DNA of 64,000 nucleotides from Eledone cirrhosa (taxonomy: Eukaryota). Shown here one piece after another: positions 2,566 to 61,022 of the stretch; position 1 is the first letter of the stretch; each line of letters begins with the position of its first letter. The notes beneath the pieces were generated by a model. That model had not been told where the DNA came from. It was given only the letters and a program-made list of their open reading frames with translations, and ran no database searches. Position numbers and translations under genes: made by a program. The DNA is taken from positions 2,790,001 to 2,854,000 of the forward strand of contig OZ024754.1 of assembly GCA_964016885.1 (NCBI GenBank), read 5' to 3'.

Positions 2566-2712
2566 GGAAAAGAGTCAGAATCTAGCTGTCGAAACGGCCG
2601 GAGCTCAGCCGTCGGGGTCCTGACTCTCTTCCTATTACTCACTCTACTACCCTAAGTATCGAGTACTCTGGTGCATTATGGTCCACCTGGTTTCTTACCA
2701 CACCTTCTTTGT
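2566..2712 (+). mobile_element. Family G element: 3' half of an HHR (GAAAC-GGC..GAGCTC..GCC-GTC-GGGGTC) plus conserved tail, in (TA)n
   Basis: One of about 12 full or partial copies in the window. Tail is cactctactaccctaagtatcgagtactctggtgcattatggtccacctgg. Confidence 0.8.
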
Positions 2713-2950
2713 TATATATATATATATATATATATATATATATATATATATATATATATATATATAGGTGTTAGACGCGAGATTACAGGTGAACACATAT
2801 CTGAGGACCATACGATTCCACTGATCGACAGTGAAACATATGTAATTAAATATGTATATGATGCAACACTCATTTTTTTTTCCTCTATGTATTTATATAT
2901 ATATATATATATATATATGTGTGTGTGCTTGTCTCTCTTTATTATATGTT

Positions 2951-3075
2951 GCCATTCTGAGTAAAATTCCCGCCGAGGTTAACTTTGCCATTCATCCTTA
3001 CGGGGTCGATAAAATAAAGTTCCAGTAATGTACTGGGAAAATTGCTGGCCTTGTGCCAAAAGTAGAAACAATTAT
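2951..3075 (+). mobile_element. tRNA-derived SINE family 1, 5'-truncated
   Basis: Core cccgccgaggttaactttgcc..tcatccttacggggtcgataaaataaag and tail gctggccttgtgccaaaagtagaaacaatt, shared by more than 15 copies. Confidence 0.85.
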
Positions 3076-3704
3076 ATTATAAGGCTCGGAAATTTTTTTT
3101 TATCCTTGAGCTATTTTAATTATAAGGGACTATTGTAAGTTTTTAACTCAATGTATACTTTTGATATATATGTGTGTGGGTGTGTGTGTGGATGCATGTG
3201 TGTGTGTGTGTGTGTGTGTGTGTGTGTGTGTGTGTGTGTGTGTGTGTGTGTGTGTGTGTGTGTGTGTGTGTGTGTGTGTGTGTGTGTGTGTGTGTGTGTG
3301 TGTGTGTACATATGTGTGTGTGTGTGTGTACATATGTGTATGTGTGTTATATTAAAATATATTGAAACACAAATAGTTTACTGTTGCTAGAGACATGCAA
3401 ACAGTATTGCTGGCAATCAATAAAATGTATTGTTGCGAGTGTGAGAGAAAGAGTTTCTTTAATAAGTGCAACTGTTAGAGATCCTTCATTAACCACGTAC
3501 ACAGGTATATCCCTACAGGATGTGGAATATAACTGATAGAATAATCTACATCCCATAACCTTTATGTAACAGGATGTCATTGTTTACTCACTTCCGGTAT
3601 AACTTTAACAAACTATATATTCATAGCTTTCTATATAAAGAACTTGTATATTGTAGAAATCAAGGGATGTTCCGTGATTCGTTAAAGTTTATTTGTTATT
3701 ACGG

Positions 3705-3899
3705 TTAGTTTTAGCTTTCATCTTTATAGTGTCGATAAAATAAAGTACCAGTAATACATTGGAGTCGAATTAATTGACTTGACTTTTCCCCTCCCCAAAA
3801 ATGTGTTGGCCTTGTGTCTAAATCAGAAACCGTTATTATTATTTTGGGCGGGAAACTGGCAGTATCGGTAGACCGTCGGACAACATAGAGTTACGGCCT
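3705..3899 (+). mobile_element. SINE family 1 diverged copy plus head fragment
   Basis: gtcgataaaataaagtaccagtaatac...ggccttgtgtctaaatcagaaac, followed by the head ggcagtatcggtaga..tcggac. Confidence 0.7.
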
Positions 3900-4687
3900 G
3901 TGTGTTTTGTATATATATATATATATAATTGGTGTTGGATTCTTAGAGCGTCCGTATGCGGTAGGCCGTATGAGCACTCGATCGTGCCTCGAGCCGGTCG
4001 CCAGAGAAACGATTGTAATATGTCCAATAAATTCCATTCGTCGCAACACTGATTCTCTTTTTTTCTGTGATATATATATATATATATGATTAGTGTGCCT
4101 TTTATATGAAACGCTATTATGTGTGTGTTTCTGTAGATTAACATGTTTAAGGGAGAGCTATTTTTCTTATCTTTTATCTAGTTATTTGTTTAATTAATTT
4201 CTTTTAGGTAAATATTCCTGTAAACACTTGACACAACTCAACCTGGGTGCAATGTGTGATATTCCTAAAACAAGCCAGAAAAATATTCCTTCAACGTTGC
4301 CAGGTGAGTAAATTACTTTATTTAATTTTATGGCGGAGGATGGGGGGGGGGGGGGGTCCTGATTATAAAAATATCTTTACTTTTGATTTTAGCTTTTGCT
4401 TGTGCTACAATTTTTATTATATTATATATTGTTTATTATTACTTTTTATCTTGTGTGATTAAATGTTTGTGTTACCGTTTTGTGCGTCGGATCGTTACAT
4501 TCCGTACCATGGGTACTAGTATGATACTTTTCTAATAGGTGCTATGGAAGTGTTTTATAAAGTCAAGTGGTTGGTTATATGTTGATCTGGTTAATGTTGT
4601 AATTGATCGGTATCGTCTTTAAACACAGCTGCTTCGTCCAAATATTCAGTAAATATTTCTTAAACTTATATCTCTGTTGTGAAGTTT

Positions 4688-4960
4688 CATGGCCAAAGTG
4701 GTCAGAGAGTTGGGTTCGCAATCGTGTGCCTGCGAGTTTAATTCTCGGACCCGGTGGTGCGTTGTGTCTTTGAGCAAACACTTCATTTCACGTTGCTCCT
4801 TCAGCCAGGAGTTTCGACCGGTAGATAGTAACAGCAATGGAAAGACCAGTGGAAACATTGTTTCTTTGGTCCGATTTGACGAGGTCCACCCCACTTGGCA
4901 AACGAATGGGATATGGGATCCTGTCGATCGATCAGAGCAATATCTCTTTCAATGGGAGAA
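4688..4960 (+). mobile_element. tRNA-derived SINE family 2
   Basis: A-box-like tggccaaagtgg, then gtgtctttgagcaaacacttcatttcacgttgctcc; reverse copy at 20780-20915. Confidence 0.65.
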
Positions 4961-58658: not shown

Positions 58659-59020
58659 CAGGGTTTCCTAAACTGGCTGACATCGCCCTCTGGCGGGTGA
58701 TTTCAACTGTTAGGTGGGCGATGAATAACTGAACTGAAAATGGTGGGCGAAACATTGGAAATTTTGGTAGGCGATATAGGGTTTTGAATATTAGGAAGGT
58801 ATTTCAACATATGCTACCTGAAAACATTTATTCCAAGGAGATATGCAAAGAACCTGTATAAATGAAACTGAAAGCTAAATGGCAATAAAGGACCAATAAC
58901 CAAATTTTACCAAACCGTTTTGCTATGTTTTACAATATTTACTATACAGGTGGGTGGTAGAAGGTTTTTTCCACGTTAAAGTGGGTGTTGATGCCCCAAA
59001 AAAGGGTTAGGGAACCCCTT
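58659..59020. mobile_element. hAT/Charlie-like MITE
   Basis: Left cagggtttcctaaac, right ggttagggaacccct; left flank tgttagag resembles a Charlie-type target. Confidence 0.55.
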
Positions 59021-59414
59021 AGGGCGTCGGATTAAATACCTCCAAGATCAACTTTTCTTATCATCTTTTCGGGGTCGATAAATAAAGAAGCAATATCGGA
59101 AGCTGTGAATTGACGGATACGTTAAAGAATCGGACGAGATGGTTGTGTGTGGTTTCTGAGACCCAATCCCGCCCCTTATCACCTGAAAAATTAGTGACGT
59201 TTCTGCAAGGAGTTTACGACCAACAGATAGATTACTCTTTCTGCAAAAGGCTGACCTCGAGTGGGAAGTATTTAGCCTGAAATATCGATCATCATCATGA
59301 ACATTGTCAAATATCAAATGAAATATATTCTTATTTCAAACTCTATTGAAATCGGAAATAACGATTAGAAAAAATATGTCGCAACCCCAAGATATTTTTC
59401 TTAATCAAACCTTA

Positions 59415-59598
59415 ATAATTGTTTCTACTTTTGGCACAAGGCCAGCAATTATCCCAGTGTATTACTGGTACTTTATTTTATTGACCTCGTAAGGATGAAA
59501 GGCAAAGTTAACCTCATCGGGATTTGAACTCAGACCATAAAGAGCCGTAACTCTTTGCTGCAAAGTATGGCGTCCGACCTTCTACCGATACTGCCAAA
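59415..59598 (-). mobile_element. SINE family 1
   Basis: Reverse full copy. Confidence 0.85.
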
Positions 59599-60432
59599 TA
59601 TTCTTCCGCAATTTCCTCCCTGCTATACTTTTTTTAAATATTTACCTAAAAAGTATTAACCTTAATTGCATTAATGTGGACTAGTTATGCCCATGTCCCA
59701 TTCTAGAAAATCTAAAATACCTTACTGAAATTGCTTTACTAACAAAGAAAATAGTTTAAAGTACACACCATAGAGCTTAGAGTTGTTTTACTCTCATGAA
59801 TATTATAATATCATTTGTCAATGATAAAAATGGTGGAAGATTACTACGAAAATTACTTATTTTGCCTCATTTAAATATCTCATTGTTTGAGAATGTTTCA
59901 GGTCACACAATAACAACAATACAATTGGAGCATGAGAACGCCCAAAACATTTCTTAAAAGGTCTATTTCTGTTCCAGGGAGACTGTGAAACATTTTACGA
60001 AGCTTTGATATCTGGTTGAACCGGTACCACTTTTGTATGAATATATCTAAAAAGAATATGTTACTTAAGTAAAGAACTGGTTCTTGTTGTTAATTGAAAA
60101 TTAATTATTTTTTTGTGATGCATTGCATAATTTTACTGACTGACTGGTGAGGTGGCAGTGTGTACGTTAAGAAAGGAACGGTGCTGGATATATTGCTAAA
60201 ACAATTCTCGTTAGATCAGTGCTTATAGCTGAAAATATAACAGGCTTTGGCTGCAACTAGGGTGACATACAACAAAGGTTGAAGATGACTCTCTCTCTCT
60301 CTCTCTCTCTCTCTCTCTCTCTCTCTCTCTTCCTCTCTCTCTCTCTCTCTCTCTCTCTCTCTCTTTCTTTCTCACACATACACACACACGCGACAACACA
60401 CAGACACACACGTGTGTGTGTGTAAGAGTGTA

Positions 60433-60760
60433 TGTGTTGAACAATGAAAATCAAACAAAATTCGAAGATAGATTCCTAATTAGTTCATTATTTTACGATC
60501 GTTTCAGAGGGTTGATTGATAATTGTTTCTACGTTTGGCACAAGGCCAGCAATTATCCAGTGCATTACTGGTACTTTATTTTATCGACTCCGTAAGGATG
60601 AAAGGCAAAGTTAACCACGGCGGGATTTAAACTCAGAGGGTTGATTGATAATGTTAGTCAATATATCGATTTACCATGATTTACCATGAAACGATTGTAA
60701 AACAATGAACTAATCAAGAACCGATCTTCGTCAATTATTTTATTTTCATTTTTCAATACA
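60433..60760. repeat. Diverged foldback (~73-bp arms) interrupted by a SINE
   Basis: Arms ~60433-60506 and 60687-60760, both ending at tGAAACGAT(C/T)GTAAAA. Confidence 0.8.
60520..60637 (-). mobile_element. 5'-truncated SINE family 1 with target-site duplication
   Basis: tcagagggttgattgataat at 60504-60523 and 60633-60652. Confidence 0.85.
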
Positions 60761-60940
60761 CATATATATATATGTGTCTATATAGCTTGACTACAATATT
60801 GGGGGAACCTTATGTGATGAGGGCCTAGTAGAAATATTATAGCACTCACTGGCAAATCCCGTTGAAACTATCTCGTCAAGGTTGCATTGGGTACCTACAT
60901 ATATATATATATATATATAAATATATATATATATATATAT

Positions 60941-61022
60941 AACAAAGAAGGTGTGGTAAGGTGGTAAGATGGACCATAACGCACCAGAGTACTCGATACA
61001 TAGGGTAGTAGAGTGGGTAATA
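60941..61022 (-). mobile_element. Family G tail only, in (TA)n
   Basis: ggaccataacgcaccagagtactcgatacatagggtagtagagtgggtaa. Confidence 0.8.

What the first reader, a model, noticed from the sequence alone, without database searches (positions are those of the whole stretch)
2566..61022. Family G: recurrent half-hammerhead palindromes that lack the CUGAUGA half in every copy here
Seen: copies at 2566, 10517, 13705, 15060, 23933, 32275, 35377, 35900, 39063 and 51933 (tails alone at 8493 and 60941). They conserve GAAAC-GGC-nnGAGCTCn-GCC-GTC-GGGGTC, i.e. GAAA, stem III with a palindromic GAGCUC loop, a GUC site and stem I'. None shows CTGANGA. Several copies instead fold back into an inverted copy of themselves within about 10-25 nt upstream of GAAA, each with a different junction. 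Two subfamilies (tagctgtc and tagccgtc) both keep an alternative hairpin gcYgt-cgaa-acggc that would hide GAAA. Inference: the parent has a long stem II hairpin where reverse transcription repeatedly stalls or snaps back; alternatively this is a split ribozyme completed in trans.
Basis: partly seen in the sequence, partly recalled or inferred. Interest (0 to 1): 0.75.

Follow-up and report, generated by a model that had tools for sequence, protein, structure and literature searches.

The report
Penelope hairpins with a split hammerhead
These short mirror-image repeats are end pieces of a young, very abundant Penelope-type jumping gene whose full copies carry a complete, known variant of a self-cutting RNA motif, and most pieces stop at one point inside that motif, likely because the gene's own transcription starts there.

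Summary
The repeats are real, but they are not an orphan half-ribozyme. They are short pLTR copies of a Hydra-clade Penelope-like retrotransposon (3,531-bp unit, 717-aa RT + GIY-YIG ORF, 99.8-99.9% identical tandem and inverted arrays). The parent holds a complete type I hammerhead with a U3:A8 core (UUGANAA), so a CUGANGA search misses it; the window copy at 32275 itself has this half. Genome-wide: 70,198 arms, 5,133 with the core, 12,957 tight palindromes. In 64 of 74 palindromes one arm ends at a short and one at a long 3' site, never the same; this scan noted that rule before on other DNA. What I found in no paper read: 147 of 176 arms stop just upstream of GAAA, peaking at an initiator-like AGT in loop II, often with an extra G, whereas 0 of 33 ORF-length copies stop there. 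Hairpin stalling and snap-back fit poorly. Likely there are two RNA templates: a capped RNA starting inside the ribozyme, and a circular or read-through RNA. No RNA data; cleavage untested.

The parts
2566..2579 (-). Stub of a short-site arm (about 14-16 bases), inverted against the long arm
   Evidence: sequence
2580..2712 (+). Long arm, subfamily 1, from -11 (G of GAAA = 0) to the long 3' site, ends in (TA)n
8493..8580 (+). Tail only (about +40 to the long 3' site)
10504..10697 (.). Head-to-head pair: minus long arm 10504-10631, plus short arm 10640-10697 starting at A(-18)
13705..13887 (.). Composite: minus short arm 13705-13749, minus tail arm 13755-13830, plus short arm 13832-13887 (-15)
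15060..15096 (+). Solo short arm from about -9
23926..24088 (.). Head-to-head pair, subfamily 2: minus long arm with an internal deletion, plus short arm 24030-24088
32115..32332 (+). Longer copy with part of the 3' UTR and the whole hammerhead; ends at the short 3' site (start approximate)
32220..32232 (+). Stem I 5' strand, U3:A8 core (TTGATAA, 32225-32231) and G10.1
32288..32315 (+). GAAA (G12 changed to T in this copy), stem III, GTC with predicted cut after 32310, stem I 3' strand
35372..35582 (.). Near-perfect palindrome: minus long arm and plus short arm, both from -22
35930..36085 (.). Old, diverged pair (about 75-77% identity), minus long arm and decayed plus arm
39064..39279 (.). Palindrome: minus short arm 39064-39128, plus long arm 39132-39279
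51931..51989 (-). Solo short arm from -14
60935..61022 (-). Tail only (+42 to the long 3' site)

Best explanation
The repeats are short copies of the terminal repeat (pLTR) of a Hydra-clade Penelope-like retrotransposon whose full copies hold a complete U3:A8 hammerhead motif, and they likely arise when the element's enzyme primes both ends of a cut (TA)n site on an RNA that starts inside that motif. Shown: parent, intact ORF, arrays, whole hammerhead motif, two 3' sites used one per arm, the pile-up of 5' ends near A(-18), its absence from ORF-length copies, and the concordance of partner arms. Inferred: (1) each DNA end primes reverse transcription at its own internal site (+42/44 or +125/128); (2) A(-18), with minor A(-22) and A(-13), is a capped transcription start, so the enzyme runs off after about 60 or 143 bases and the two cDNA ends are joined head to head with small losses; (3) this RNA lacks the UUGANAA half and so would not cut its own leader, while the complete downstream copy would cut upstream of both priming sites; (4) long and tandem copies come from a second template without that 5' end, most simply a ribozyme-cut and closed circle or a read-through RNA.
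For: Parent: ORF with RT and GIY-YIG parts directly upstream of the motif and tail in most of 30 loci; intact 784-codon open frames in arrays 99.8-99.9% identical, including two whole elements head to head; Hydra motifs as described in PMC8557442. Hammerhead: 5,133 core-bearing arms, position 7 free, control 0; 94% of cells paired, 3 stem II pairs changed on both sides between subfamilies (10 copies). Two-sided priming: 64 of 74 tight pairs long+short, 0 alike, 10 with one arm unclassified; PMC11167929 reports two start sites and extension of both strands in vitro. Fixed 5' end: of 176 arms, 93 end at -14..-19, rate 0.108 per base against 0.006 at -26..-63; same step in contig depth. Extra G: before A(-18) 12 of 61 (TA)n-joined places and 21 of 100 palindrome arm ends, A 3 each, against 3 of 123 templated copies (hand counts); G before C-starting arms 1 of 55. 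Two pools: 0 of 33 against 147 of 176, p about 1e-21; partner arms stop/stop 61, pass/pass 11, mixed 3.
Against: My simplest prediction failed: if A(-18) were the 5' end of the RNA that also makes long copies, they should pile up there, and none of 33 did; the second template is added to explain this and is not observed. The extra G is not specific to -18: it also stands before A(-13) in 7 of 29 places. The AG at -18/-17 with pyrimidines before it also reads as a 3' splice site. Folding support is modest: z-scores -0.44 to 0.65 (5 sequences); the hammerhead is the minimum-energy fold in 1 of 4 copies and 1.1-2.4 kcal/mol above it in 3. Rfam gave no hammerhead hit at gathering score in 7 loci; Pfam gave no relevant hit on 5 ORF pieces. 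The 10 aligned copies fall in three related subfamilies, so the covariation is about three events. The 50 long copies were picked for likeness to one young ORF. No tree was built.
Confidence: 0.62

Rival explanations
1. Same parent, but the short copies are a self-propagating non-coding element: they are transcribed from their own internal start site and copied in trans by the Penelope enzyme, like a SINE.
For: Explains why only short copies stop at -18 and their excess (against 43); none of 106 stop-class long arms runs on into the 5' UTR; nearest neighbours of short arms are slightly closer among short arms. It shares the capped start with the best explanation.
Against: The five commonest short-arm haplotypes all occur among core-bearing arms too, so no short-only lineage shows; junctions nearly all differ, so palindromes are made anew and not copied whole; arms that start at -18 have lost the two bases before the start A.
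Confidence: 0.2
2. One reading: reverse transcription stalls at the long stem II hairpin or folds back on itself there.
For: Stem II is long (about 9-10 pairs); palindromes at inverted junctions were read as self-priming in PMC3846280.
Against: Stops lie 14-19 bases beyond the base of the hairpin; ORF-length copies pass 33 of 33 times and their inverted partners 9 of 9 times; long pairs have unrelated 5' ends, which fold-back cannot give; 21 short arms have partners that stop before GAAA.
Confidence: 0.07
3. The boundary is a 3' splice site inside loop II: splicing removes the UUGANAA half and short copies come from spliced or debranched RNA.
For: YAG preceded by pyrimidines or a CTAAT-like word in all subfamilies; Penelope introns lie in the pLTR and one ends at helix I of the hammerhead (PMC4209133, PMC2377424).
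Against: Ends peak at -17/-18 and keep the AG, with a second group at -21..-23; no shared upstream exon sequence in solo arms.
Confidence: 0.08
4. A DNA-transposon MITE or foldback element with terminal inverted repeats.
For: Palindromic shape.
Against: Arms are unequal, centres vary, and the sequence is continuous with an RT-endonuclease ORF.
Confidence: 0.01

Closest known systems
Hydra-clade Penelope-like elements (Craig et al. 2021, PMC8557442; passages, the Hydra section as passages, and searched rows of the supplement)
   Same: RT followed by C-terminal GIY-YIG; DKT, CxCX5C linker, no CCHH, CxxC and CxH around E and N; (TA)n targets; partial tandems, inverted 5'-truncated copy, tail at one end; hammerhead in the pLTR.
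   Different: Unit 3.53 kb (described as generally under 3 kb); RWR in place of RWK; U3:A8 core with about 50-nt stem-loop II and 5-bp stem III in place of the CUGANGA motifs listed; tail about 83 nt (30-40 described); RT stretch and hammerhead differ from Hydra-1_Obim by eye.
U3-A8 hammerhead variant of Schistosoma Cercyon PLEs (Cervera and de la Pena 2014, PMC4209133; parts 1-2 of 4 read)
   Same: Type I hammerhead in a pLTR, U3-A8 core, G10.1-C11.1, long helix II, palindromic loop 3, pairs of motifs on opposite strands; circle model for tandems proposed there.
   Different: Stem III is a stable 5 bp, not minimal; most copies here are cut at one point inside loop II.
Poseidon element of Anolis, PAc (Frangieh et al. 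2024, PMC11167929; parts 1-2 of 4 read)
   Same: Internal initiation at two sites just downstream of the hammerhead, both DNA strands extended, AT-rich target, tail equal to the stretch between the sites.
   Different: Other clade; no rule of one site per arm and no fixed 5' end inside the ribozyme are reported in the parts read.
Drosophila virilis Penelope promoter (PMC2377424, passages) and Adineta vaga Penelope (PMC3846280, passages)
   Same: Internal TATA-less promoter with initiator in the pLTR; head-to-head arms with palindromic junctions.
   Different: In D. virilis the start lies upstream of an intron that ends at helix I, so upstream of the ribozyme; here the inferred start lies inside it.

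Membership tests
EN+ Penelope-like element | Single ORF with RT and GIY-YIG endonuclease | tested here: met
   717 aa from Met; FDIESYY and YRDD RT motifs, VIY..YIG endonuclease motif read; 646 relatives, one with PF00078. Pfam scan of five pieces gave nothing relevant.
EN+ Penelope-like element | pLTR-ORF-pLTR partial tandems with inverted 5'-truncated copy and optional tail | tested here: met
   L159, L160, L184, L186, L187
Hydra clade | DKG changed to DKT | tested here: met
   SDKTG; definition
Hydra clade | CxCX5C linker; CxxC and CxH around conserved E and N; no CCHH in the endonuclease | tested here: met
   CNCPDRSIC, CNLCSEE, LLN..CKH; one Cys only between VIY and YIG
Hydra clade | N-terminal RWK motif | tested here: inconclusive
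   RWR at the matching place; Hydra-1_Crog in the supplement also reads RWR
Hydra clade | (TA)n insertion preference | tested here: met
   3' ends run into (TA)n
Hydra clade | Generally under 3 kb (a tendency, not a definition) | tested here: not met
   unit 3,531 bp with about 1.2 kb 3' UTR
Hydra clade | Placement in an RT phylogeny | not tested
   No named reference proteins could be handed to the tools; likeness to the paper's alignment judged by eye
Type I hammerhead ribozyme | Core N3-U4-G5-A6-N7-N8-A9 with 3:8 pair, G12-A13-A14, A15.1-U16.1, H17 | tested here: met
   U3:A8, N7 takes all four bases; counts partly set by the search motif
Type I hammerhead ribozyme | Three helices with covariation | tested here: met
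   stems I, II, III 98, 94, 96% paired; both-side changes only in stem II
Type I hammerhead ribozyme | Match to an Rfam hammerhead model | tested here: not met
   0 hits at gathering score in 7 loci
Type I hammerhead ribozyme | Self-cleavage after GUC | not testable with these tools
   needs an in vitro assay
MITE / DNA foldback transposon | Equal terminal inverted repeats, fixed centre, no RT parent | tested here: not met
Non-LTR retrozyme | Non-coding tandem units each with a whole hammerhead | tested here: not met
   tandem units are 3.5-kb coding elements; short copies lack the 5' half; definition

The most novel reading that the evidence does not exclude
The element's promoter splits its own ribozyme: the capped mRNA begins in loop II and carries only the substrate half at its 5' end, and the enzyme half in the 3' UTR of the same RNA, 3.5 kb away, completes it, removes the cap fragment and lets the RNA close into the circle that templates tandem arrays. 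Tens of thousands of genomic palindromes would then be a fossil 5'-end map of the mRNA, and one RNA would switch from message to template through a naturally split hammerhead.
Probability: 0.15. Interest if true: 0.8.

Novelty: new variant of a known kind. Interest (0 to 1): 0.48.

Why it matters
What the hammerhead does for Penelope-like elements, and how their tandem and inverted ends are made, are stated as open in PMC8557442 and PMC11167929. This family is young, intact and present in tens of thousands of copies, so the genome gives base-level statistics: one priming site per arm, a fixed 5' end inside the ribozyme for short copies, none for long ones. That makes the capped-versus-circular template question directly testable with one intact element. 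As a repeat family alone it is ordinary.

Tried and rejected
CTGATGA upstream of GAAA: 13 unlike hits, read as chance flanks. Rfam on the window: the 150 listed of 536 weak matches were microsatellite hairpins and other non-hammerhead families, 386 not seen; the repeat finder was swamped by microsatellites. Pfam on a 70-aa end piece and five ORF pieces: nothing relevant. Neptune or Nematis clade considered first, dropped on the motifs. Alternative hairpin as an on/off switch: not consistent over 4 copies; 2 of 6 picked copies did not print. Collision of the long arm with the short-site primer: no pile-up, 4 of 100 long arms end at +36..48. Run-off at the ribozyme cut (+23): no clear peak. Start site as 5' end of the template for long copies: rejected. 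Separate short-only lineage: inconclusive. Expression: no RNA holder listed. Runs X5 and X6 from other organisms gave 3 and 4 contigs, too few for covariation. A paper precedent for cap-derived G was sought and not found in the one paper opened; that idea is recalled. PMC12029980 and PMC13282606 (passages) added nothing on a start inside a hammerhead. A tRNA-SINE or Helitron reading was considered by eye and dropped once the ORF was found.
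Full report
Positions below count from the G of GAAA (0); upstream is negative. The predicted cut lies after +22.

Observation. All twelve places hold one family, as solo arms, tails or head-to-head pairs in (TA)n. The window lies in a 3.0-Gb genome. The exact 16-mer spanning -8..+7 occurs 70,198 times, reversed control 0; tight palindromes number 12,957. 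In 630 kb taken at arbitrary places I found 48 arms, in the 64-kb window 18.

The missing half is not missing. CTGATGA upstream of the motif gave 13 unlike hits. But the window copy at 32275 and one arm in L021 shared further upstream sequence. Searching with it returned 30 loci; those displayed (the output was cut in the middle) carry ACCCC-TTGATAA-G or a near variant. This is a type I hammerhead with U3:A8 in place of C3:G8, a variant reported from Schistosoma PLEs (PMC4209133). Subfamily 2 has it too: 377 matches. Over both, 5,133 arms carry TTGANAAG at the right distance, with all four bases at position 7; that is 7.3% of arms by exact match, somewhat more allowing for mutations. On 10 aligned copies 94% of cells pair, 0 of 500 shuffles reach that, and three stem II pairs change on both sides; the copies are related, so this is about three events. 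Against: folding z-scores are near zero, the active fold is the minimum in 1 of 4 copies, Rfam does not call it.

The parent. Upstream of the motif lies a 3' UTR and then an ORF ending in an endonuclease. A protein search listed 91 places, many with open frames of 784-801 codons. Fetched arrays show 3,531-bp units 99.8-99.9% identical in tandem (L184, L187) and two whole elements head to head (L186), the window's palindrome at full size. The ORF starts at +213 and has 717 codons. DKT, CxCX5C, no CCHH, and CxxC/CxH match the Hydra clade as defined in PMC8557442; its RT stretch resembles the Hydra rows of that paper's alignment by eye and differs from Hydra-1_Obim. No tree was built and Pfam was silent. 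The family is therefore the pLTR of a recently active Hydra-type Penelope-like element.

Two 3' ends. Among 176 arms not chosen for 5' length (41 from arbitrary stretches and the window, 80 from the 16-mer list, 55 from the first search; 208 other unique arms left out because they were chosen on 5' length or as palindromes), 86 end at +42/44, 78 at +125/128, 12 otherwise. In 74 tight pairs 64 are long+short, none alike, 10 have an unclassified arm. A tail on one end is known (PMC8557442, PMC3846280), and two internal start sites with extension of both strands were shown for another PLE (PMC11167929). In long insertions the two arms have unrelated 5' ends, which two primings explain and fold-back does not. 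Earlier notes of this scan report the same rule on other DNA (not checked on their loci).

One 5' end. Of the 176 arms 147 end at -1..-25 (93 at -14..-19), 7 at -29..-56, 22 reach the core. Ends at -20..-25 are partly inflated by chance match to the partner arm. Contig depth in run X1 steps from 0.13 to 2.1 million across -18 (possibly the assembled sample, and subfamily divergence in loop II adds to the step). The word at the edge is T(C/T)AGT(C/T) in nearly all core-bearing copies while the loop otherwise differs, like the initiator consensus (recalled); a second such word puts an A at -22. The base before A(-18) is T or C in 119 of 123 templated copies, G in 3, but G in 12 of 61 places joined to (TA)n and 21 of 100 palindrome arm ends, with A 3 times each (hand counts of the first 100 rows). 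The control cuts both ways: G precedes arms starting at C in 1 of 55 places but arms starting at A(-13) in 7 of 29 (hand count; Fisher p 0.0008 for A-starts against C-starts). I read this as copying of a cap at purine starts (recalled behaviour of reverse transcriptases; no precedent found). It is suggestive, not proof.

A failed prediction. If the same RNA made long copies they should also stop at -18. Of 50 ORF-bearing copies (40 + 10 of the 91 listed) 17 stop downstream of 0, 33 reach it and none stops at -25..-1; 5 ran off the fetched stretch. Their inverted partners pass in 9 of 9 cases that reach 0. In 121 unselected arms, partners are stop/stop 61, pass/pass 11, mixed 3, early 22, none or edge 24, pairs counted from both sides. 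So the barrier belongs to the template, not to the sequence, which removes hairpin stalling, and both arms draw on the same template class.

Mechanism. Likely: transcription starts in loop II; this RNA has only the substrate half, and priming at +42 and +125 runs off after about 60 and 143 bases, giving the palindromes. In the downstream pLTR the ribozyme is whole and would cut upstream of both priming sites, so a linear message could not template its own ORF after cutting. Long and seamless tandem copies need a template without the -18 end: a cut and closed circle, as proposed in PMC4209133, or uncut read-through RNA, which PMC11167929 found to be the main substrate in vitro. I cannot separate these.

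Novelty. Known: the clade, the U3:A8 core, inverted arms, the tail. Not found in the papers read or in searches: a start site inside the hammerhead, and the contrast between short and long copies. Supplements of bioRxiv preprints could not be seen; of the preprint only part 1 of 5 was read. Confidence in the identity about 0.95, in the capped internal start about 0.65-0.7, in a circle about 0.4.

Noticed in passing
window 860-960, 8440-8490, 32370-32425, 39608-39720: A second (TA)n-inserted repeat with a CTGATGA-type hammerhead-like motif on the minus strand, head to head at 860-960 and 39608-39720, and directly beside family G copies at 8493 and 32332.
   Followed up: no
L154:3294-4649 (minus): A 452-codon RT frame of a different Hydra-like family inserted inside a family G parent copy.
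   Followed up: no
L186:911-9683: Two complete 3.5-kb elements in a 99.86% identical inverted repeat about 4.1 kb per arm, both ORFs open; one arm ends at the short site, the other at the long site.
   Followed up: yes
L211:8594-8739: A head-to-head insertion whose long arm is subfamily 2 and whose short arm is subfamily 1, so at least sometimes two different RNAs (or a nested insertion).
   Followed up: partly
L185:5017-5919 (minus): A 301-codon frame of another RT-like element (YVDD motif) near the 5' end of a tandem array.
   Followed up: no
window 53242-53290 (minus): A separate hammerhead-like match (CTGAAGA, GC-rich stem II, GAAA) running into (TA)n.
   Followed up: no
window 57449-57648: A 200-base run of N; long open frames in the window are low-complexity and no host gene was recognised.
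   Followed up: partly
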